This document shows positions 6,157-49,576 of a stretch of 61,235 bases of DNA, piece after piece. The position numbers were made by a program, and so were the translations under genes. Under the pieces are notes generated by a model that saw nothing but the letters and a program-made list of their open reading frames with translations, ran no database searches and had not been told where the DNA came from. Origin of the DNA: Escherichia phage slur01; the sequence record NC_028831.1. The stretch is one strand, 5' to 3'. Numbering within the stretch: position 1 is the stretch's first letter; each line of letters opens with the position of its first letter.

Positions 6157-6624
6157 TTATTGGATTGAACCGCGATCAATTAACCATTGTTTCGCGTGCG
6201 CTTTAAAAATAATGCGGTAGTCATCAAGACTAATTTCCGCGCGGATGGAATCTTTAACTTCATACCACTGCCATTCACCATTACTGAAGACAACTGGGTT
6301 AAGTGGCAAAACAACCTTCCATCCTTTACGTTCTATTTTATACATCAGAACTGGATATCTGCCAAGCTCTTTAGCAGATTGAACAGTCTGCTTCCACCAT
6401 GTGTTTACTTGTGGCGTAGCGTGGTTTTTTACTTCAACCGCATGGTGGCATGTATTGCTAATGTCGCAACCACCGACCGCACTTTGATTCTGGTTACGCT
6501 GAGCAATAGGTTTTTCCGGTAACTGCATCCCCAGCTCTGCGTAAATTTCGGCATAAATTGCATTAAAGAAATCACATACTTCCCGCTCACCGCGTTGACC
6601 TTTAGCGCGAATATTTACTGCCAT
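6157..6624 (-). CDS. Putative PD-(D/E)xK nuclease, Hjc-like Holliday junction resolvase
   Basis: N-terminal GQRGEREV and downstream VEVK resemble the Hjc/archaeal resolvase catalytic core; start re-picked at ATG with GGAG RBS (track uses a GTG at 6654). Confidence 0.45.
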   Translation of the reverse strand: MAVNIRAKGQRGEREVCDFFNAIYAEIYAELGMQLPEKPIAQRNQNQSAVGGCDISNTCHHAVEVKNHATPQVNTWWKQTVQSAKELGRYPVLMYKIERKGWKVVLPLNPVVFSNGEWQWYEVKDSIRAEISLDDYRIIFKAHAKQWLIDRGSIQ

Positions 6625-6696
6625 GTTTGTCTCCATAACTTTAATGTAAAACACTTCATAAAGAATTTTATATTAAAGTTATGTTGATCGCAAGGA

Positions 6697-6729
6697 ACAA
6701 AAAAGCCCAGGCATAAGGATTCCTGGGCT
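6697..6729 (-). terminator. Rho-independent terminator (minus strand)
   Basis: Stem GCCCAGG/CCTGGGC followed by TTTTTTGTT on the minus strand. Confidence 0.6.
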
Positions 6730-7040
6730 CTCTTGATTGTCGGATAGCTTACTTTGACTGCCGTCTTCGTCTATCCTGGCCTACTTGTACAGCCTCGCCA
6801 AAGGCTGGTGACGGTTTGGTACATCTGGCGCCGTCGCGTTAAACATCGTTCACATCGTTCAGTAAGTTGCGGGTTTACCCTGTCCGCTCCAGGAAGCCTA
6901 GCGAAAGTAGTTGCTGTAAGGAGGTACAGCTACCGCTTTCAAGGGCTGAGTTAAGCATCGTTCACTAAGTTAATGTTGTTAAATTGTTAAACCTCGTTAA
7001 CTGTGGTTATCTTAAAGGATGCAGTCTTGAATGGCAAGCT

Positions 7041-7346
7041 TCAATTTTGCGCGGTTCCCTTTGCCGCTTTTGGTGCTAAAGTACCATCATTTAACATCAA
7101 CTCAAAACCTTGTACTTCATAAGTTGGAACAATAGCATAGCCCATGATTGTAAGTACAATAGATTCATCCTCACGACGCGGATAATAAATATGACACCAA
7201 TGAGGAAAAGCATTGTCGTGACGAATCTCTGCATAAGTTTTATGATCAACCAAAATCTTTTGGATTTGGTTATTGTCCTCATTATTTACATTTTCACGGA
7301 TAAGCTCCGCATAAATTGCTTCACAGATAGTATTTACAATGCTCAT
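7041..7346 (-). CDS. hypothetical protein
   Basis: 101-aa ORF with strong RBS GGAGGTG. Confidence 0.55.
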   Translation of the reverse strand: MSIVNTICEAIYAELIRENVNNEDNNQIQKILVDHKTYAEIRHDNAFPHWCHIYYPRREDESIVLTIMGYAIVPTYEVQGFELMLNDGTLAPKAAKGTAQN

Positions 7347-7585
7347 TTTAACACCTCCAACGGACGAAGTAGTTTATAGTGATTTGTTGCAACCCCGCCA
7401 GTGTTATTATATTTCTTCATAACACTGATGAACCCTTTTTGCCGAAGACTTCTTATACAGCTTGATATCATTGTCTGTTGCAATCCTGTAATTTTAGCCA
7501 ATTTTGCATAACTTATGACAATCTCGTTATTAACACGAGGAGCAAATTTTAATGCTTTATATACTAAAATATCATAAGGACACAT
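7343..7585 (-). CDS. Small winged-helix/HTH DNA-binding protein
   Basis: HTH-like segment ISYAKLAKITGLQQTMISSCIRSLRQKGF; start re-picked at ATG preceded by GAGGTG (track ORF runs to 7759 with no RBS). Confidence 0.45.
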   Translation of the reverse strand: MCPYDILVYKALKFAPRVNNEIVISYAKLAKITGLQQTMISSCIRSLRQKGFISVMKKYNNTGGVATNHYKLLRPLEVLK

Positions 7586-7826
7586 TTCACACCTCATAGA
7601 ATGTACATAAACCAGAAATAACCAGCTACGAAAATAGCACCCGCAAATAATTTTAAAAGCTCGAACATTGTTCCCTCCGTCAACTTTATGCTGTAAGTAT
7701 AGCAGGACTTGCGATGTATGCAACAACTTTAGACTTGAAATACATCTATGAAATAGCACGATTTGCCTTTACCTCTGATCCGTCTAGCTGTACTATTAAC
7801 CCATAAACAGAGCGGAGGATTACAAA

Positions 7827-8051
7827 ATGGTCATGCTGAATAAAGTATATAGCACAATGGGCGCGGATTATAAAGTTGTACGTCACCCGCGTACTGGTAA
7901 ATTTGAAGCATACATCCGTCCAATGGGTGAAGGTTGGATGTATTACGGTACTTATGATGATGCTGAGCAAGCTTATAAAGAAGCGGAAAGTGCCGCGGAA
8001 GCATCCGAAATTATGGCAAGGTACGACGTCGATGATTACTACCTTAACTAA
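7827..8051 (+). CDS. Stand-alone AP2-like DNA-binding domain protein
   Basis: YKVVRHPRTGKFEAYIRPMGEGWMYYGTYDDAEQAYKEAE fits the AP2 pattern (R-x-x-GK-W-x-A-x-I...G-T-F-x-x-x-E-x-A); RBS GGAGGA; plus-strand gene inside a minus-strand block, followed by a terminator. Confidence 0.55.
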   Translation: MVMLNKVYSTMGADYKVVRHPRTGKFEAYIRPMGEGWMYYGTYDDAEQAYKEAESAAEASEIMARYDVDDYYLN

Positions 8052-8055
8052 CAAT

Positions 8056-8083
8056 AAAGGGCCTTTCGGCCCTTTATTTATTC
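8056..8083. terminator. Bidirectional rho-independent terminator
   Basis: AAAGGGCC-TTTC-GGCCCTTT hairpin flanked by A-run and T-run; lies between the convergent AP2 and primase genes. Confidence 0.7.
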
Positions 8084-10420
8084 CTCTTCTCCTAAGTTTG
8101 CCATAATACCTTCAACATCTTGCGTAATGCGCCAAGCTGCGCCAGTGAATCCCAGTTTGATAGTCTCCTCCCGTGTTACCGGAACAAGTGCACCCATAGC
8201 AACCATTTCCTTGATCGTAGACTCGATCGCTGCGGACAATCCGTGGTGATAGTTTTTAAACGCGGACTTACTTGCAAGACGAGTAGTAATATCACCCCGC
8301 GTGATAATGCCTTCCTTACGCAGATCTACACGTTTAACTTTGACCCAATCTTTAGTTAGATAATTCACACAAACCTGGCACATAGTACGGATACGAGCTT
8401 CGTCATTAGTACCGATACCCCCACTATGCCATTCCTTCATAATGATATCCTGTCCATGACGCACAAAGTCCAAGGCCCATTGAACATGATAGGTCTGCAC
8501 AACCGGATTGATCCAGTTTTCTCCCACAGCTAACAGGGCGGATAGACGTAACACCTTCAGGTGGGCACGGTTCCAGGGCTGACGGATTGCTTCGTCTTTG
8601 GTTGCGTTAATATTACGGTCACATTCGTCGTTAAACTGATCACATAATGCTTCCGCTTCTGGACTAAACTGCACTTCAATACTTTGATGCTTTGCCATTG
8701 CGACTAAGGTGTGGTTAACAAGATGGCACACCATATCCCGCAAATGCTGATCCATTGTAGTCTGCTGGTTCTTGTTTAAAGGTGGTCGATCCCCTTCATA
8801 GCGGACAACATGGAAACGGGATAAGAAACCGTCCTCCATCATTTCACGGGTTAATGCTTCAAAGAACGTATCCGGTGTCGTTTCGCCCATGATGCTATAG
8901 GCCACACCTTGTTGAGCTTCCGTATTATTAGCCTTATCAGAATAAGACATACCACCGACAATAGACATCTGACCGGACTTTTGATAAACATCGGTAAGGT
9001 CGTTCTTGAAGCTTTGCATCGGTGAACCTGCTGGCGCCGTAGCCATTGCTTTAATAATCTTACCAAACTCACCGTTCAAGTTGATAAAAGATTGTTTGTC
9101 CGCAAAAGATTTACGCAGTGCAGAGCCGGAAGCACATCGGTCAAAAGATACAAAGCTATGAATCTGCGGAAACGGTTCCTGAAGCTGGCTAACTATATTA
9201 GATAAGCCACTGTTCAACGTTTCTTTACCAACACCAGAACGAGCAATAAGGACAAAATATCCATTAAGACCAGATTGCGGAATCTGCCAGACCTTGCCGC
9301 ATACACCGGCCATAAATCCTAGTGCCGTCACAATAGAAATTTCTTTCACTGGTCGGACGGATGCTTTGTAGATATACTTCGCAAGCTCCCCAGCAAGCCC
9401 CGGCGGCCAGTCAATGGCGGTTGCATCAATAGACGTACTTTCTGCAACTACGGTCTGCCCCTGTGTTGTTTCAACAGTTACGGGCATTTCCGCTACCTGT
9501 TGCATTGCACTGTGTGCCGCTTGCATACGGGCAGCATAATCCCGCGCCAGCGCCGCTACGTTTTCCTGGGCAATGCGCTCACGCTCCATGCGACCGCGAC
9601 ACATACGCAAGCAACGGTCAATATGAACATTGTTCTTATTAGCCTTCTCACGTTTGCCCAGTGCGCTATAACGGAACAGACGACGACATTGCTCATTACT
9701 TTCCGTGTAGAATGCATACATAGAAATAAGGGCAAGGTCTGCTTCAGACTGGGAAGGGAATCCCATTTCAACCCATTCACCGTTAAATAACCGTGCATAC
9801 TTATCGCCGTTATCTGCTTCAAGCGCACGCTGATGAATAGTTGCATCATCTTCTACCGGATCTTTTTCTACCAGTTCAATTTCATATGTCTTGCGCTGAA
9901 GATCAATTTCATTCACAAGCATAGTAAGGTAATGATCACGTTCTGCAACTGGTTTGTTGTAGACGGGATTGCCCGTGCAGATAATAAAACGCTCCTGACT
10001 ATAAACCTCGACACCATCACGTCGACGACCTTTACCGATGTTACCTCTTAACCACAGGTGGACACCCAGGCCTGAGCGACTCACTTCGGTGTAAGTATCG
10101 AATGCAGTCATGATCTGTTCGAAGCGGCGCAACTGTTCCGGCGTCGTGTGCTTTTTGGGATCCGGTTCATTGGTTGCGTTCTTCACATCCAGGTCGATGC
10201 AGGTGAACGGGTCTTGTGCAGTAAGCACGAATCCAATATAAGGTTTATTGAAATGAGCGGCGCAACCTTTGGCAGCTTCAAACGTCATAAGCATATCCGG
10301 ATCGGTAACGTCCGCCGCCATCAAACGTCCAATATCGTTATCCCATACGAGCGGCTTCTTGTCCGCATCGGCCACCGCCCATTGTGGGAAAGCTTTAATT
10401 TCAGCGGGAAACAGTTCCAT
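8078..10420 (-). CDS. Putative DNA primase/replicative helicase (primase-polymerase-like N-terminal domain)
   Basis: 780 aa; N-terminal region resembles bifunctional prim-pol domains; central GYFVLIARSGVGKE P-loop-like segment; strong RBS AGGAGG. Confidence 0.5.
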   Translation of the reverse strand: MELFPAEIKAFPQWAVADADKKPLVWDNDIGRLMAADVTDPDMLMTFEAAKGCAAHFNKPYIGFVLTAQDPFTCIDLDVKNATNEPDPKKHTTPEQLRRFEQIMTAFDTYTEVSRSGLGVHLWLRGNIGKGRRRDGVEVYSQERFIICTGNPVYNKPVAERDHYLTMLVNEIDLQRKTYEIELVEKDPVEDDATIHQRALEADNGDKYARLFNGEWVEMGFPSQSEADLALISMYAFYTESNEQCRRLFRYSALGKREKANKNNVHIDRCLRMCRGRMERERIAQENVAALARDYAARMQAAHSAMQQVAEMPVTVETTQGQTVVAESTSIDATAIDWPPGLAGELAKYIYKASVRPVKEISIVTALGFMAGVCGKVWQIPQSGLNGYFVLIARSGVGKETLNSGLSNIVSQLQEPFPQIHSFVSFDRCASGSALRKSFADKQSFINLNGEFGKIIKAMATAPAGSPMQSFKNDLTDVYQKSGQMSIVGGMSYSDKANNTEAQQGVAYSIMGETTPDTFFEALTREMMEDGFLSRFHVVRYEGDRPPLNKNQQTTMDQHLRDMVCHLVNHTLVAMAKHQSIEVQFSPEAEALCDQFNDECDRNINATKDEAIRQPWNRAHLKVLRLSALLAVGENWINPVVQTYHVQWALDFVRHGQDIIMKEWHSGGIGTNDEARIRTMCQVCVNYLTKDWVKVKRVDLRKEGIITRGDITTRLASKSAFKNYHHGLSAAIESTIKEMVAMGALVPVTREETIKLGFTGAAWRITQDVEGIMANLGEEE

Positions 10421-32361: not shown

Positions 32362-35300
32362 TGGCCGAAACTGCTTCGCTAGTAATCAGGGTTGACGCGA
32401 AAGGGATTAGCACAGCGGACTCCATGCTGCGTAACCTTGCGCGTACAGGTGACACAGCGGAGCGTTCCGCTCAACGTGTCACATCCAGCTATAAAACATT
32501 GTCTAACACATCTAACGAACTTGCAACTGTCACAAGTCGTTTAGATGCTGCAATTGTAGGAATGATCAGCGTTGACACCATTAACCGTGTTATTTCGCTA
32601 TCGGACTCCTGGACTATCCTCACCAACAAACTTGAACTGGCTCGTACGGGTAATGAAACCGTTGCGGATGCACAGCAACGCGTGTTTGATATTGCCCAGC
32701 GGTCACGTACAAGCTTGGAAGCAACTGCAACTCTATATTCCCGTCTCCAGCGTGCAATGAAGAATACTGGTATGACGGGTATGGAGCTTGGACGTATCAC
32801 TGAAACAATTAACAAAGCGATGATTGTTTCCGGTGCAACGTCACATGAAGCAAGCGCTGCTCTTATTCAGTTTTCGCAAGCAATGGCATCCGGTGTTTTG
32901 CGCGGGGATGAATTCCGTTCTGTTGCAGAACAAGCCCCGCGCTTAACTCAAATCATGTCCGATGCGTTAGGTGTTACCATTGGACAATTGCGTGAAATGG
33001 CTTACAGCGGCAAGTTGAGCGCCGATGTGGTTATCAAATCGTTGTCTGGTGCTGCGGATACAATTGATAAAGAATTTAGCCGCACTATGCCAACGTTTAA
33101 CCAGCAATGGACGGTTGCAACAAACAACTTGACTAAGTTCATGGGCGAATCCCAAAAGACTCAAGGTGCGGTTGCTGCATTGGGACAGACGTTTGTTGCG
33201 TTATCCGAAAACTTAGGAACGGTTGTAACAGTTGGTTCAGCTTTAGCCACAGTGATTACCGCCCGTATCATTACGGCAATGCTTGCTAAGACTAAAGCGT
33301 CTATAGCTGCTGCAAAAGCATCGCAGATGGAAGCTGCACAAACGGCGGCAACTACTGCGGTGATGCAAAGCTCTATTGGCGTTACCGCGCAGAAAGCGGC
33401 TGCGGATCGTGCTGCCTCTCTTGCAGCGTTACAGGTTGCTCGCGGGTCATTAGCGGTTGCTAAAGGTACGGCAGCGGAAGCAGGCGCACGTCTTGCGCTT
33501 ATTAACGCTACCCGTGCGCATTCTGCGGCAATTATGGCGGACGTACAAGCGCGGCAAGCGCTCAATGCTGCGCTTAATGCAACTGTACCAGCCGCAAGCC
33601 GAGCAGCTACAGCAATGAGCGTGCTGCGCGGTACTATGGGGTTAATTGGCGGTCCTGTTGGTGTAGCAATGCTGGCAGCGGGTGCAATTTACTCCTATAA
33701 AGCGTCGTTGGAAGCTGGTCGTGCGGAAAACAATCAGTTTGCGGATAGTGTTGATTCTGTACGCGAGAAACTGATGCAGATGACAGAAGCTCAGTTGGCA
33801 GCTAACGCAGTTAAAGCTCGCGCAATTCTCCCCGAACTTGAAGAGCAAATGAAGCGGGAGCAAACTGCTCTTAAATCTGCAACGGAAACGCAGAAGTTCT
33901 ATGAAGCACAATTAAAACGTCGCGCTGCGTCCGGTCGTAATACAGCTAGTGCCGAGAAGAATTTACAGATTGCTACGGATAACGTCAAGCTTGCTGCTGA
34001 ACGTGCTGAAGAAGCTCAACGCCGTTACAACAATGTCTTAGAAATGACAAGCCCTGCTATCGAGAAGATAATTCCGTTAGCTCGTCAGCTTGCAGCGGAT
34101 ATGAAAGCAGTGCTTAATATCAAATCCGGTCCGCTTATTGACGAGAAAGTGCTTGATCGTTTTAAAGGTCAGTTAGGTGACGTTAACCGTGAGATTGACG
34201 TTAACACGGTTAAAGGTGCTGGTAATGCTCGCCAGGCTGCAATCCTTAGTGGGCTGTATCAAACTCTGGGCAAAGATGCAGACACCTACGGAAGTCTAAT
34301 TCGCAAAGTAGCTATGGGGCAGGATGTTAGCTCTGAAGCAACAAGCGAGTCCGCAAAAGAACTTGTTAAATATGCTCAAGAGCTAGCGGAAGCTTACGGC
34401 AAGAATTATGATCTTGAAGAAGCGGAGAGAAATCGAACCAAAGCTACAAAAGACGCTATTAAGGCGGATCAACAGAACGCCAAAGTTATTGACGATTTAC
34501 GCAACAAGCTTAACGAAGTAACCACAGGGGTTAAGGAAAACGCTAAAGCTAAAGCGCAAGCTGTAGCACTCAATAAGTTAAATGCGTCCGCAACGGCTGC
34601 GGAAAAAGCAGAAGTTGTTAGTCTTGCTGCTGCAATTTACGATGCAGAAGAAGCTCAAAAGAAACTGGACGAGCGTAAGAAGAATCGTAAGTTTGCTCAG
34701 GGTCTGTTAGATGAAGGTATGACAGACTACGCGCAAATTGAATACGAGATGCAAGAAAAGATTATGAAGCTTCACAGGGATCAACAAGCGGATGATCTTG
34801 AGCATTATAAGCTCTACGAAGATGCAAAGACGCAAGTCCTGAAGAAAGCAAGTATGGAAAGAGAAAATCTGGATAAAGTTCTTATGAACCGAATGATATC
34901 TTTTTCTCAGGAATCCTTAGGCATTATAATGGATGGCCTGTCACAGGCTGTAAGCCAGCAGAACTTCTTTTATAAAGCTATGTTTGCAGCACAGAAAGCA
35001 ATGCAAATCCCATCAATCCTTGCCAACACGGAAACGGCAGCATCTGCGGCGCTTGCATGGGGTACACAGCAAGGAGGTGCTACGATGGGTGCAACAATGG
35101 CAGCTATAGTGAAAACTATGGGTTATGCGTCCGCTGCTACTGTGGGTGGCTTGGCGATCGCTGGTATGGCTCACGACGGTATTGATAACGTTCCGCGTGA
35201 AGGTACATGGCTGCTGGATAAGGGTGAACGTGTACTTAATGCTCCGTCTAATGACAAGTTAAATCGCTTCCTGGATAGCCAAGCTTCACAACAAGGTGGC

Positions 35301-47590: not shown

Positions 47591-49576
47591 TTAGGCGTAT
47601 CCCATGTCTTCGAGATACTTCTCTGCTTTAGCTATATAAGCATCATAATCTATGTCGTCCGGTATTTTATCCGGTAGCGTCATAATCGGGACGCCTCCCG
47701 CGCTACCAGCTACACGGTTGCCCGAGTTAGCATAGATTATTTCAGGTGTTTCTTCATTAGTGCTTAAGTACCAGCGTACAACCTTACCCAAAAATTCGCC
47801 ATTCCATACCGCGCCACCTTTTACCGCACGTAGGATAATGAATTTTCTAATATCGTTGCAATTGCGTATAGTACGAGAAACAGGCGTACCGTGGGCCAAA
47901 CATTCACATACAGCTTCCATAATGATCTCACCAGTACAGTTCTTTTGAAGACCTGTCTTTGCGAACCACCCTTTACGTTTAATTTCAACATTTCCTTCCT
48001 CGTCAGGTTCTTTTACTGCAACATAGTTATTGACGTTAGCGCTGTACAGCTTGTCATAGTAGTTGGACTCCATTACAAAACCTGTTACGGATTCCCACCA
48101 CTTGATCATATTATCAACGAAGTCCTGCATGTGGTCCGGATACTTAAGCACAATGCCGTCCGTGTTGGCTGAAATTACTTTAACTCCGTTCAGCTCAAAC
48201 GCTTCAATAAGCATTAACAGCGATAACTGCCCAGTTAATGTAACTTGTATCAATAATTGCGGAGCGTACAGTACAGACCACATTGATCCCAACTTACCGA
48301 ACGATCCGTTGATTACGATCTTCAGAGTATTGGCTGTGTTCTTGTCCCCTGACTGCTTAGCTGCAATACGGCGGTCTACAATGCTTTTATAAACACGAAG
48401 AAACGCTGGTCCCAACTGTTCTGGATATAAGCCCTGATTAAGAATGATTGTAGGATAATAAGACGTTACGTCAATGTCCCGCTTTTTGATACCAGGCTCT
48501 TTACCGTGGCCAGCACACTCTTCGGAGCTGTGCAAACCACCAATACCCATACGGTAGACACCGTCCGCAATCTTGATCTCAAGACCTGTTAATGCAGGAG
48601 GTAAGCTGACACCACCGTTATCGCTAACAATAAAGCGACAGTCCCGAACAATATCCAAAACACTATTCATCAGAGGTGTTTGAAAACGAATAAAGTCCGG
48701 TATGTTATATGCATATTTAGTTCCAGGATAAACTTGTGGACGCTGCGGACGCACGCCCGTTAACGCTTGAATTTCGTGTTTAATCACGTCTTCTGCAATC
48801 TGCGCATCAGAACGTGAACGCAGATCCACACCGTATTCTTTCGACATAATTTCACGAAGATGTAAAGGTTCCTGTAATGCAATAAAACATTCTTCCGTCT
48901 GTACAAGGTCGTTAATACAGTACCAGCGTACAATCAACATCTGGTCCTGCGTCAGCATTGTATTTGGCTTGAACGGTAAATCCTGCATACGGCGAGTATG
49001 TACACGTCCGCCATATTGTTTCAAACCACCGGACCCAGGCAGCACTTCCATAATATCGATGTGGTTAACGTTCTGCATACGCTTGAGACGGTAACTCTTC
49101 AATACATCCGAAGGACGCCAGTCTTCAACGATTATTTTATCAGTTGCGTCTTTAAGCTGAGCATTAGAGCAGCCGTTAAGCGCAAGCGTAGCAATGGGCA
49201 TATCGTACCCGTTACCGTTAAAGCTTACGATAAGGAAGTTTGTCATTACCCAGTTAAGTAATAAGCAATTCAAACTACAACCGTGATACATCTCGAAGTA
49301 GACAACTTTCTTAGTTCGCACTCCGCGAAATGCAATTAAGAAATAATTTGGATAACATTCTATATCATATACAAGCGGTTCGCGGTTAATCCATGCTTGA
49401 ATAAGTTCGTCCTGTGTGTACAGGTTGTATTGGAAGTTCCGCGCTTCCTCAAGGTTAGGCAAATAATCCGGGCGCTCCCAAGTTCGCTCCGGCGGTAAAC
49501 GTTTAACCTTTTCTTTCTTTGCTTTTGGCTCAGGCGGTAAGTCCTGCCAAAAGAAACCAATAGCATCTGTCCGCAT
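47591..49576 (-). CDS. DNA polymerase with N-terminal 3'-5' exonuclease domain
   Basis: Exo-I-like YDIECYPNYF; polymerase motifs DVTSYYPTII, KIVINGSFGKLG, ANTDGIVL; start chosen at ATG overlapping the upstream stop (TAATG). The track ORF extends to 49630. Confidence 0.85.
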   Translation of the reverse strand: MRTDAIGFFWQDLPPEPKAKKEKVKRLPPERTWERPDYLPNLEEARNFQYNLYTQDELIQAWINREPLVYDIECYPNYFLIAFRGVRTKKVVYFEMYHGCSLNCLLLNWVMTNFLIVSFNGNGYDMPIATLALNGCSNAQLKDATDKIIVEDWRPSDVLKSYRLKRMQNVNHIDIMEVLPGSGGLKQYGGRVHTRRMQDLPFKPNTMLTQDQMLIVRWYCINDLVQTEECFIALQEPLHLREIMSKEYGVDLRSRSDAQIAEDVIKHEIQALTGVRPQRPQVYPGTKYAYNIPDFIRFQTPLMNSVLDIVRDCRFIVSDNGGVSLPPALTGLEIKIADGVYRMGIGGLHSSEECAGHGKEPGIKKRDIDVTSYYPTIILNQGLYPEQLGPAFLRVYKSIVDRRIAAKQSGDKNTANTLKIVINGSFGKLGSMWSVLYAPQLLIQVTLTGQLSLLMLIEAFELNGVKVISANTDGIVLKYPDHMQDFVDNMIKWWESVTGFVMESNYYDKLYSANVNNYVAVKEPDEEGNVEIKRKGWFAKTGLQKNCTGEIIMEAVCECLAHGTPVSRTIRNCNDIRKFIILRAVKGGAVWNGEFLGKVVRWYLSTNEETPEIIYANSGNRVAGSAGGVPIMTLPDKIPDDIDYDAYIAKAEKYLEDMGYA

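What the first reader, a model, noticed from the sequence alone, without database searches (positions are those of the whole stretch)
6730..7040. About 300-bp structured non-coding region with a duplicated CATCGTTCAC...TAAGTT motif
No convincing ORF exists here; the only track ORF (6754..6954) has no RBS and odd composition. The motif (T)TAA(A/G)CATCGTTCAC...TAAGTT occurs twice about 110 bp apart (around 6838..6873 and 6951..6981), next to a GC-rich hairpin and a minus-strand terminator. This could be a small RNA gene or a regulator-binding region.
Basis: seen in the sequence. Interest (0 to 1): 0.5.

Follow-up and report, generated by a model that had tools for sequence, protein, structure and literature searches.

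The report
Conserved structured small RNA gene in Seuratvirus
The 300-bp gap is most likely a previously undescribed gene for a ~300-nucleotide folded non-coding RNA, read from the minus strand, that Seurat-like E. coli phages conserve better than most of their neighbouring protein genes; what the RNA does is still unknown.

Summary
The window is a Seuratvirus (Queuovirinae) genome. Window 6699-7037 holds a self-contained minus-strand unit: a sigma-70-type promoter (TTGCCA-17-TAAGAT, 7037-7009), about 300 nt with no conserved ORF, and an intrinsic terminator (6729-6699).

That repeat in turn belongs to two arrays of U(U/G)AAC pentamers spaced 8-10 nt apart, with six copies at 7000-6954 and three at 6861-6842. 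No other such array exists in the 61-kb window.

Between and after the arrays lie five helices supported by compensatory changes across three lineages (E. coli phages, Salmonella phage STP-SP5, Hafnia phage yong3):
- a long hairpin whose loop reads ACCUCCUUA, the 16S rRNA 3' end;
- an H-type pseudoknot;
- two hairpins with invariant, mutually complementary loops;
- a 3' hairpin.

G-U pairs favour the minus-sense RNA. The element is 96-99% identical among E. coli Seuratviruses, while the upstream ORF is about 73% identical. It matches no Rfam family, no tRNA and no E. coli sequence, and it is absent from sister genera.

Verdict: a new genus-specific phage small RNA. Transcription and function are untested. 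The arrays could instead be DNA sites (operator or origin).

The parts
7032..7037 (-). -35 hexamer TTGCCA of the RNA's own promoter
   Evidence: Promoter scan. The hexamer is TTGACA in STP-SP5 and TTGCAA in yong3, always 17 nt from the -10 box, although the spacer sequence differs. It starts 3 nt after the stop codon of ORF 7041-7346.
7009..7014 (-). -10 hexamer TAAGAT
   Evidence: The hexamer is TAATAT in STP-SP5 and TAAGAT in yong3.
6699..7002 (-). Predicted transcript, about 300 nt (start inferred about 7 nt after the -10 box, end in the U-tract)
   Evidence: Inferred from the promoter and terminator. Minimum-free-energy z-score is -2.9 on the minus strand against -0.9 on the plus strand. 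No conserved ORF. No Rfam or tRNA match.
6950..7001 (-). 5' array: six U(U/G)AAC pentamers at 10, 8, 9, 9 and 10 nt spacing; includes 16-nt repeat copies 6986-7001 and 6950-6965
   Evidence: STP-SP5 lacks one unit (8 nt). yong3 keeps GUUAAC/CUGAAC repeats. No supported base pairing.
6895..6947 (-). P1: long interrupted hairpin (about 19 bp); the 8-nt loop plus the first closing base read ACCUCCUUA (6917-6925), identical to the 3' end of 16S rRNA
   Evidence: RNAalifold. Six of 19 pairs change on both sides, and 98.9% of cells are paired. The loop is invariant in E. coli phages and STP-SP5. The 10-mer ACCTCCTTAC equals the 16S 3' end. P1 is absent in yong3.
6869..6894 (-). P2: H-type pseudoknot UCCUG-GA-GCGG-A-CAGGR-UAAAC-CCGC
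   Evidence: 98% of cells paired, and 4 of 9 pairs change on both sides. The changes come from STP-SP5 (GUGG/CCAC) and from a diverged duplicate of the module in metagenome contig L014 (CCAG-GA-CUGU-A-CUGG-AUAAAC-ACAG). The A/G polymorphism at 6878 keeps a U-A or U-G pair. Stem 1 competes with a possible long-range helix CCUGG/CCAGG.
6838..6868 (-). R2 array: three U(U/G)AAC units; tandem 9-nt unit GAACGAUGU x2; 16-nt repeat copy 6838-6853
   Evidence: It has three 9-nt units in Dru_SM1, point changes in L004/L009/L011/L015, and a roughly 100-nt insertion in L014. It is the most variable part among near-identical phages.
6810..6835 (-). P3: hairpin GACGG/CCGUC with a 16-nt loop CGCCAGAUGUACCAAA
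   Evidence: The C-G pair becomes G-C in yong3. The loop is invariant apart from one base in yong3.
6790..6807 (-). P4: hairpin CAGCCU(U)/(G)AGGCUG with loop UUGGCG; UGGC is complementary to GCCA in the P3 loop (possible loop-loop contact)
   Evidence: two pairs change on both sides in yong3 and one becomes G-U in STP-SP5. The 4-bp loop-loop pairing is invariant, so covariation cannot test it.
6742..6776 (-). P5: 3'-domain hairpin GGAUAG/CUAUCC enclosing the conserved ...GUCAAAGUAAG...
   Evidence: Dru_SM1-type phages have AAAUAAGG/CCUUAUUU at the aligned place. The STP-SP5 minimum-free-energy fold forms it. It is not evident in yong3. In the window it competes with a predicted pairing of 6952-6959 to 6743-6751.
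6699..6729 (-). Intrinsic terminator: stem GCCCAGG/CCUGGGC, 10-nt loop, six U
   Evidence: Dru_SM1-type phages have a different 10-bp stem plus U-run here. yong3 has a third version, GCCCACU/AGUGGGC plus U6.
6665..6693 (-). Separate promoter of the downstream PDDEXK/RusA-like gene (context only, not part of the RNA)
   Evidence: TTGCGA-17-TAAAAT. yong3 has TTGCAA-18-TATAAT at the same place. This shows the terminator closes an autonomous unit and is not an attenuator.

Best explanation
Window 7037-6699 (minus strand) is an autonomous gene for a roughly 300-nt structured non-coding RNA specific to the genus Seuratvirus.

Inferred from sequence and comparison:
- Host sigma-70 RNA polymerase starts about 7 nt after TAAGAT (about 7002) and stops at the intrinsic terminator (about 6699).
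- Read-through from the upstream ORF would end at the same terminator.

Shown by comparison:
- The RNA folds into P1 (loop ACCUCCUUA), an H-type pseudoknot (P2), two hairpins with invariant loops (P3, P4), a 3' hairpin (P5) and the terminator.
- These folded parts are separated by two unstructured arrays of U(U/G)AAC every 8-10 nt.

Inferred mechanism, held with low certainty:
- The RNA acts in trans as a multivalent binding RNA.
- The pentamer arrays are a landing pad for a single-strand-binding or oligomeric RNA-binding protein of phage or host. The adjacent pseudoknot and hairpins organise that binding, and the number of units can vary.
- P3 and P4 form the universal core.
- In the E. coli and Salmonella lineages, the added P1 loop can pair with Shine-Dalgarno sequences (GGAGG) of mRNAs.

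The confidence figure is for 'a transcribed, structured RNA that works at the RNA level'. I put the specific mechanism at about 0.25.
For: Identity of the window:
- It is 99% identical to Escherichia phage KurtStettler and Skure, which are Seuratvirus.

Promoter:
- The hexamers and the 17-nt spacing are kept in three lineages although the spacer diverges.

Terminator:
- Three unrelated stem sequences, each followed by a U-run, sit at the same position.
- The downstream gene has its own conserved promoter.

Structure:
- On alignment A4, 99.4% of cells are paired and 7 pairs change on both sides, against 0-2 in slid controls and 0 of 500 shuffles.
- P3 and P4 with yong3: 3 pairs change on both sides, 100% paired.
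- Pseudoknot: 4 of 9 pairs change on both sides.
- P5 is GGAUAG/CUAUCC here and AAAUAAGG/CCUUAUUU in Dru_SM1-type phages.

Strand:
- 32 of 350 cells are G-U or U-G pairs, which would be A-C mismatches on the plus strand.
- The fold z-score is -2.9 on the minus strand and -0.9 on the plus strand.

Non-coding:
- No ORF is conserved in any frame.

Constraint:
- The RNA is 96-99% identical among E. coli Seuratviruses.
- Over the same comparisons the upstream ORF is about 73% identical, the primase 76-98% and a DNA-polymerase core segment 89-95%.

Arrays:
- They are unique in the genome, both lie on the minus strand, and indels remove or add whole units.
Against: - No transcript data were available, so the start, the end and expression itself are predictions.
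- The promoter scan finds no more sites in this region than in shuffled sequence (4 found against 5.6 expected). Support for the promoter therefore rests on conservation only.
- Covariation comes from few independent lineages: STP-SP5, yong3, the Dru_SM1 type, contig L004 and one paralogous duplication in L014.
- P1 with the anti-Shine-Dalgarno loop, and P2, are missing in yong3. They cannot be the universal active site.
- No convincing base-pairing target was found in the phage. The best candidate, 16 bp with the DNA polymerase mRNA, is not conserved in STP-SP5.
- G-T pairs are also tolerated in single-stranded DNA hairpins.
- The arrays show no feature that separates an RNA role from a DNA role.
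Confidence: 0.62

Rival explanations
1. The repeat arrays, and perhaps the hairpins, work as DNA. They would form a replication origin or primosome-loading region of the replication module: iteron-like direct repeats bound by an initiator or the primase-helicase, hairpins formed in unwound single-stranded DNA, and the promoter providing transcriptional activation or a primer.
For: - The element sits inside the replication gene cluster. It lies about 300 bp downstream of an ORF with a winged helix like DnaD_N and phage O-type initiators (weak hits), and about 1 kb from the prim-pol/helicase gene.
- There are three 16-nt direct repeats and nine short direct repeats in one orientation.
- 6950-7049 is AT-rich (GC 0.34).
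- From memory, unverified here: the phage P4 origin uses TGTTCACC octamers, which share GTTCAC with this repeat.
Against: - The cumulative GC skew turns at about 12-15 kb, not here.
- Repeat spacing (8-10 bp, then 36 and 112 bp) and copy number differ between lineages, unlike typical iterons.
- A compact pseudoknot with conserved A-rich loops, a conserved promoter and three independent terminators are not explained by an origin.
- The element stays 98% identical in phages whose primase is only 76-77% identical.
Confidence: 0.14
2. The arrays are operator DNA for a phage repressor, for example a ribbon-helix-helix protein that binds short tandem repeats. The repressor would control the promoter at 7037-7009. 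The rest is a structured 3' UTR or small RNA.
For: - The six-unit array begins at about +2 of the predicted transcript, directly under the promoter.
- Each 16-nt repeat is an imperfect palindrome GTTAA-N6-TT(A/C)AC.
Against: - No other such array exists at any other promoter in the 61-kb window.
- The palindromic second half-site is not kept in STP-SP5 or yong3.
- The second array lies 145 nt inside the transcript, between conserved RNA structures.
Confidence: 0.1
3. It is a cis-acting leader, either an attenuator or riboswitch or a processive antitermination signal, that controls the downstream PDDEXK/RusA-dUTPase genes.
For: - Promoter, 300-nt structured RNA, terminator, then a gene 75 nt further on is the layout of a riboswitch leader.
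- An H-type pseudoknot with an A-rich loop recalls preQ1-I aptamers, and this phage subfamily makes 7-deazaguanines (subfamily).
- A 12-mer is shared with the rrnB boxA region.
Against: - The terminator sequence is replaced wholesale in two lineages, with no conserved alternative (antiterminator) pairing.
- The downstream gene keeps its own near-consensus promoter after the terminator.
- In Dru_SM1 and STP-SP5 other genes are inserted between the RNA and RusA.
- No riboswitch model matches, even in 56-86-nt searches at E<=10.
- A shared 12-mer or longer arises in 7% of shuffles.
Confidence: 0.06
4. It is a protein-coding region (the + strand ORF 6754-6954 annotated in some relatives), or sequence with no function.
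For: Several GenBank records annotate a hypothetical protein here.
Against: - The ORF starts with TTG and has no ribosome-binding site.
- Its frame and length change between lineages. Only the residues encoded over the P3 loop persist.
- Conservation above that of coding neighbours, together with compensatory changes, excludes neutrality.
Confidence: 0.02

Closest known systems
Phage-encoded small RNAs with their own promoter and intrinsic terminator (lambda OOP, P22 sar, P4 CI RNA, DicF, Stx-phage AgvB/AsxR; from general knowledge)
   Same: It is a short autonomous transcription unit inside a phage gene cluster, ends in a hairpin plus U-run, and has no coding capacity.
   Different: It is three to five times longer and multi-domain, and it lies in a strictly lytic siphovirus. 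It is not antisense to any neighbouring gene. No target is known, and there is no sequence or covariance-model similarity to any of them.
T4 gene 32 translational operator (a 5' pseudoknot followed by an unstructured A/U-rich tract with UUAAA/UAAA repeats that gp32 coats cooperatively; from memory, not checked here)
   Same: An H-type pseudoknot (P2) is followed directly by an unstructured array of short U-A-A-containing repeats (R2). The unit number is flexible.
   Different: Here the module lies inside a terminated non-coding RNA, not ahead of a start codon. The repeat is U(U/G)AAC at an 8-10 nt period. No binding protein has been identified.
Multi-site protein-sponge RNAs (CsrB/CsrC, RsmY/Z)
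   Same: The size (250-370 nt), many copies of a short motif and a terminal terminator are alike.
   Different: The CsrA motif GGA is not enriched: 4 copies against 5 expected, and 0 in yong3. The motifs here lie in unpaired runs and not in hairpin loops. No Rfam hit.
Small RNAs that block ribosome-binding sites with C/U-rich loops (for example RsaE/RoxS and RNAIII in Gram-positive bacteria), and the 16S rRNA 3' end itself
   Same: The P1 loop shows ACCUCCUUA, a 9-10 nt identity with the 16S 3' terminus. It is invariant while its stem covaries.
   Different: There is a single such loop, and it is absent in the Hafnia phage homologue. No preferred target was found.
preQ1-I riboswitch aptamer
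   Same: Both are compact H-type pseudoknots with an A-rich third loop. The phage belongs to a subfamily that makes 7-deazaguanine DNA modifications.
   Different: No match to any preQ1 covariance model. Loop 2 is a single A and lacks the ligand-pairing C. The pseudoknot is not ahead of a que gene and is absent in yong3.
Iteron-type phage and plasmid origins (lambda ori, P4 ori/crr)
   Same: Both have direct repeats near replication genes and next to an AT-rich stretch.
   Different: The units are very short and irregularly conserved. There is no skew switch. The arrays are embedded in a unit with RNA-level covariation.

Membership tests
Any Rfam 15 family (including tRNA/tmRNA, 6S, RNase P, riboswitches, known phage RNAs) | Score at or above the family's gathering threshold with its covariance model | tested here: not met
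   There were 0 hits at gathering threshold in the whole window. At E<=10 in 551-, 56- and 86-nt searches only noise appeared (10-17 bits against thresholds of 35-270). ARAGORN found nothing.
Independent bacterial-type small RNA gene | Own promoter upstream of the RNA | tested here: met
   TTGCCA-17-TAAGAT matches 9 of 12 consensus positions. The hexamers and spacing are conserved in STP-SP5 and yong3 while the spacer diverges. Promoter activity itself was not measured.
Independent bacterial-type small RNA gene | Intrinsic terminator at the 3' end | tested here: met
   A 7-8 bp GC-rich stem is followed by six U. Three non-homologous versions sit at the same site in different lineages.
Independent bacterial-type small RNA gene | No conserved reading frame | tested here: met
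   A six-frame ORF comparison across five homologues found none conserved.
Independent bacterial-type small RNA gene | Conserved secondary structure with compensatory changes | tested here: met
   The number of independent lineages is small.
Independent bacterial-type small RNA gene | A discrete transcript detected in infected cells | not testable with these tools
   No expression data were available. The literature searches found no study of this locus.
Hfq-dependent small RNA | Terminator hairpin with a U-tail of 6 or more, plus an A-R-N or U-rich internal site; Hfq binding | tested here: inconclusive
   A tail of six U is present in the window and in yong3. AAC/AAU triplets occur in the 5' array but are not contiguous. 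Binding cannot be tested here.
CsrB/Rsm-type sponge | Many GGA motifs, mostly in hairpin loops | tested here: not met
   GGA occurs 4 times against 5.0 expected in the window RNA, and 0 times against 3.0 expected in yong3.
preQ1-I riboswitch | Match to the aptamer consensus or covariance model; ligand-pairing C at the end of loop 2; position ahead of a regulated gene | tested here: not met
   No PreQ1 family hit at E<=10 in a 56-nt search. Loop 2 is a single A. An autonomous terminator and a separate promoter follow.
Iteron-type replication origin | Three or more direct repeats | tested here: met
   There are three 16-nt repeats and nine pentamer units.
Iteron-type replication origin | Regular spacing and a conserved repeat set across relatives; strand-composition switch at the site | tested here: not met
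   The 16-nt repeats are spaced 36 and 112 bp apart. Unit number and sequence vary among lineages. The cumulative GC-skew minimum is at about 12-15 kb.
Iteron-type replication origin | Initiator binding and initiation of DNA synthesis at the site | not testable with these tools
   This needs gel-shift or footprinting assays and replication mapping.
Type III antitoxin (ToxI-like) or CRISPR-repeat mimic RNA | Tandem 34-36-nt repeats (ToxI-like), or near-full-length identity to a host CRISPR repeat | tested here: not met
   Only 9-nt tandem units are present. No E. coli chromosomal match. The resemblance of P2 to the type I-E repeat, compared by eye with the repeat recalled from memory, is limited to GGAUAAACC. 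In the window itself the A is a G.
rrn/lambda boxA antitermination site | boxA consensus GCUCUUUAACAA, including its 5' half | tested here: not met
   The shared word is TTTAACAATTTA. The 5' half reads GAGG here and GCUC in boxA. A shared word of 12 nt or more occurs in 7% of shuffles.

The most novel reading that the evidence does not exclude
The RNA is a phage-made decoy that imitates parts of the host rRNA operon transcript or other host RNA. It would use its anti-Shine-Dalgarno loop, a boxA-like 5' word and the multivalent U(U/G)AAC arrays to capture host translation or transcription factors, or to neutralise an RNA-targeting defence. On this reading it would be a new class of large regulatory or anti-host RNA in lytic coliphages. 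Unit-number changes and module duplications would be traces of an arms race.
Probability: 0.1. Interest if true: 0.85.

Novelty: new member of a known kind. Interest (0 to 1): 0.55.

Why it matters
- Non-coding RNAs of strictly lytic coliphages are almost unexplored.
- This RNA is large and multi-domain, and it is better conserved than most of the neighbouring protein genes compared here (only the RusA-like gene is as well conserved, and better conserved in STP-SP5). Conservation at that level argues for an important role.
- It occurs in phages that are already laboratory models: the BASEL collection phage KurtStettler (Bas22) and its relatives, and CAjan and Seurat, which are used to study 7-deazaguanine DNA. 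Deletion, Northern blots and pull-downs are therefore straightforward.
- It would add a new RNA family to Rfam.
- It would correct the spurious 'hypothetical protein' annotations in several GenBank records.
- It may reveal a new way for a phage RNA to recruit or sequester a protein through periodic pentamer arrays.

Tried and rejected
- Known RNA families and tRNA/tmRNA: no hit.
- Host origin: no similar sequence in 5,426 E. coli genomes. The single genome-contig hit (L021) and metagenome hit L012 are 20-24-nt chance matches.
- Homologues outside Seuratvirus: two covariance models (R1 with 165 positions, R2 with 61 positions) found nothing in Nonagvirus JenP2, Nipunavirus JG012, Enterobacter phage EC151, Vibrio phage pVco-14 or Klebsiella phage K4PH164. 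The syntenic gap in EC151 is an unannotated ORF.
- Base-pairing targets in the phage: exact complementary words reach 12 nt at most, which is chance level. The duplex scan gave z of about -5 for every query region. Its most striking hit pairs R2 with the DNA polymerase mRNA at about 48285-48300 over 16 bp, but this is lost in STP-SP5.
- rRNA-operon mimicry: the two longest shared words fall on boxA and on the 16S 3' end. A shared word of 12 nt or more occurs in 7% of shuffles, and the boxA 5' half is not matched. I keep this only as a lead.
- CsrB-like sponge: GGA is not enriched.
- Riboswitch or attenuator: there is no conserved antiterminator, and the terminators are replaced wholesale.
- Partner protein: the upstream 101-aa ORF has no Pfam hit, is unrelated to the ORF upstream of the yong3 RNA (E = 2.2), and gave an AlphaFold model with pLDDT 46, so no fold search was made.
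- Coding potential: rejected.
- Literature: five full-text searches found nothing on this locus. A search for the P4 iteron octamer returned only primer sequences.
- More diverged copies: three further scans of viral contigs returned only the two contigs already found. A BLAST search with the yong3 element found no further relatives.
Full report
**What the window is.**
The region and its flanks are 98-99% identical to Escherichia phages KurtStettler (Bas22), Skure, CAjan and Seurat, which belong to Queuovirinae, genus Seuratvirus. Around the finding all genes run on the minus strand:
- a prim-pol/helicase gene (8078-10420);
- a winged-helix ORF with weak similarity to DnaD_N and O-type initiators (7343-7759);
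- a 101-aa ORF of unknown function (7041-7346);
- the gap;
- a PDDEXK/RusA-like nuclease gene (6157-6624);
- a dUTPase gene.

**The observation.**
The repeat finder adds a third, degenerate copy of the 16-nt unit at 6986-7001. Read on the minus strand, the repeats resolve into a shorter periodic motif, U(U/G)AAC.
- Six copies start at 7000, 6990, 6982, 6973, 6964 and 6954.
- Three more start at 6861, 6852 and 6842.
- These are the only chains of three or more such motifs at 8-11 nt spacing in the whole 61-kb window. In 200 shuffled genomes the longest chain was 2 in 184 cases and 3 in three cases.
- The RNA holds 9 copies against 0.7 expected.
- Tandem Repeats Finder sees only the two cleanest stretches: 6843-6861 with period 9, and 6976-6991 with period 8.

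**A transcription unit on the minus strand.**
- A sigma-70-type promoter, TTGCCA-17-TAAGAT (7037-7009), begins three bases after the stop codon of the upstream ORF.
- The scan itself finds no more promoter-like sites in this region than in shuffled sequence (4 found against 5.6 expected), so conservation carries the argument.
- Salmonella phage STP-SP5 has TTGACA-17-TAATAT and Hafnia phage yong3 has TTGCAA-17-TAAGAT, with diverged spacers.
- About 300 nt downstream lies an intrinsic terminator: GCCCAGG/CCUGGGC followed by six U, at 6729-6699.
- Dru_SM1-type phages carry a different 10-bp stem plus U-run at that place. yong3 carries a third version.
- After the terminator, the nuclease gene has its own promoter in every lineage.
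- The unit is therefore closed at both ends. It is not a leader of the next gene.

**It is not coding.**
The + strand ORF 6754-6954 starts with TTG. Several GenBank records annotate a hypothetical protein in this gap. Its frame and length change between lineages, and only the residues encoded over one conserved loop persist. No other frame is conserved.

**It is structured RNA.**
RNAalifold on ten RNA-sense sequences predicts a long hairpin, P1, at 6947-6895. Six of its pairs change on both sides in STP-SP5 or in contig L004. On alignment A4 with the named structure:
- 99.4% of cells are paired;
- 7 pairs change on both sides, against 0-2 when the partners are slid;
- 0 of 500 shuffles reach the observed values on three measures.

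yong3 was found through synteny and with covariance model R1 (52.7 bits). It adds a C-G to G-C swap in P3 and two double changes in P4, while the two loops stay almost invariant.

The stretch UCCUG-GA-GCGG-A-CAGGR-UAAAC-CCGC fits an H-type pseudoknot. STP-SP5 changes stem 2 to GUGG/CCAC. A metagenomic relative (L014) carries an insertion of about 100 nt that contains a diverged copy of the module, CCAG-GA-CUGU-A-CUGG-AUAAAC-ACAG. In that copy both stems are changed and the unpaired bases are kept.

In the 3' domain, GGAUAG/CUAUCC is replaced by AAAUAAGG/CCUUAUUU in Dru_SM1-type phages.

Thirty-two of 350 cells are G-U pairs, which would be mismatches in a plus-sense transcript. The fold is also more stable than shuffles only on the minus strand: z = -2.9 against -0.9.

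The caveat is that the number of independent lineages is small.

**Constraint and distribution.**
Nucleotide identity to the window:

| Segment | E. coli Seuratviruses | STP-SP5 |
|---|---|---|
| RNA element | 96-99% | 79-81% |
| RusA-like nuclease gene | 95-97% (68% in Dru_SM1) | 85% |
| Upstream 101-aa ORF | about 73% | 72% |
| Primase gene | 76-98% | 70% |
| DNA polymerase core segment | 89-95% | 74% |

- The 101-aa protein is 56-59% identical at the amino-acid level in two IMG/VR contigs.
- Exact-word scans found the element in 2 viral contigs and 8 metagenome contigs. They found it in no bacterial genome: the one genome hit is a 24-nt chance match.
- It has no E. coli counterpart.
- Two covariance models find it in no sister genus of Queuovirinae.
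- yong3 lacks P1, P2 and the second array. It keeps the promoter, the 5' array, a first hairpin whose loop resembles the P3 loop, P3, P4, the 3' motif CAAGUAAGC and a terminator.
- The universal core is therefore the 5' array plus P3 and P4. The anti-Shine-Dalgarno hairpin and the pseudoknot are lineage additions.

**How it may work.**
What is shown is the anatomy. What follows is inference.

The arrays are unpaired, directional and periodic. They tolerate gain or loss of whole units: STP-SP5 lacks 8 nt in the 5' array, Dru_SM1 has an extra 9 nt in R2, and L014 has a module duplication. That behaviour suits a multivalent binding platform for a single-strand-binding or oligomeric protein. The nearest analogy I know, from memory, is the T4 gene 32 operator, a pseudoknot followed by UUAAA repeats.

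The P1 loop ACCUCCUUA is identical to the 16S 3' end and is invariant while its stem covaries. It could therefore pair with ribosome-binding sites.

I found no specific target. Complementary words within the phage are at chance level. The best duplex, between R2 and the DNA polymerase mRNA, is not conserved.

Several readings were tested and dropped:
- a CsrB-like sponge (GGA not enriched);
- a riboswitch (no conserved antiterminator, no model match);
- boxA mimicry (the 12-mer shared with the rrnB leader lacks the boxA 5' half, and shared words that long occur in 7% of shuffles).

**Rivals.**
The arrays could act as DNA, either as operator sites under the promoter or as iterons of an origin in the replication module. 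For this speak the location, the nearby initiator-like wHTH ORF, and the imperfect palindromes GTTAA-N6-TT(A/C)AC. Against it:
- no composition switch here;
- irregular and lineage-variable repeats;
- no second site elsewhere in the genome;
- RNA-type features that an origin does not explain.

None of these rivals removes the evidence that the folded part is selected as RNA.

**Verdict.**
It is a new, genus-restricted phage small-RNA family with an unusual architecture. Its expression and function remain to be tested, and the experiments are easy in available model phages.

Noticed in passing
window 6634-6683: A perfect 12-bp inverted repeat, CATAACTTTAAT/ATTAAAGTTATG, lies between the terminator and the RusA-like start codon. 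It overlaps the -10 box of that gene's promoter and ends right at its GGAG ribosome-binding site. Relatives carry one mismatch. It could be an operator or a 5'-UTR hairpin. The weak miRNA-like Rfam hits come from this hairpin.
   Followed up: no
L003 2361-2873 (Dru_SM1); also the L010, VogelGryff, SA80RD, OddieOddie and SA126VB type: In a subgroup of Seuratviruses an HNH endonuclease gene is inserted just downstream of the RNA. Exactly there the RNA's 3' domain and terminator are replaced by a strongly diverged version that keeps the P5 helix and a terminator. This looks like the footprint of a homing endonuclease next to a highly conserved target.
   Followed up: partly
L014 about 1130-1250 (metagenome contig ERZ1026901 NODE-154): An insertion of about 100 nt inside the R2 array contains a diverged duplicate of the pseudoknot-plus-repeat module and an extra hairpin.
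   Followed up: partly
window 7827-8051 (+) and 8053-8078: A lone + strand 74-aa ORF sits in a minus-strand cluster. It has a weak AP2 / HNH-associated DNA-binding domain hit and is followed by a perfect 11-bp hairpin that could terminate in both directions.
   Followed up: no
window 7041-7759: The window is a local mosaic. The 101-aa ORF is only about 73% identical in nucleotides to that of its otherwise closest relative KurtStettler. The wHTH ORF aligns over only 42% of its length. The RNA between these ORFs and RusA is 99% identical.
   Followed up: partly
L019 12405-12716 (Enterobacter phage EC151): The 320-bp 'intergenic' gap between the primase and endonuclease genes is an unannotated ORF of about 103 aa, not an RNA.
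   Followed up: yes
window 48285-48300 (-), inside the DNA polymerase gene: A 16-bp complementarity (one G-U pair) links the R2 repeat to the mRNA segment that encodes the conserved NGSFGKLG motif. It is lost in STP-SP5, so it is probably chance.
   Followed up: yes
window 6981-6992 and 6916-6925 versus E. coli rrnB (L022 321-332 and 1993-2002): The two longest words shared with the rRNA operon are TTTAACAATTTA and ACCTCCTTAC. The first covers the 3' half of the leader boxA and the bases after it. The second covers the 3' end of 16S rRNA and the next base. This is suggestive but not statistically compelling.
   Followed up: partly
window 34182-34213 (-): This is the only other place with three TTAAC within the tested spacing: TTAACCGTGTTAACGTCAATCTCACGGTTAAC. 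It contains a 10-bp inverted repeat, AACCGTG...CACGGTT.
   Followed up: no
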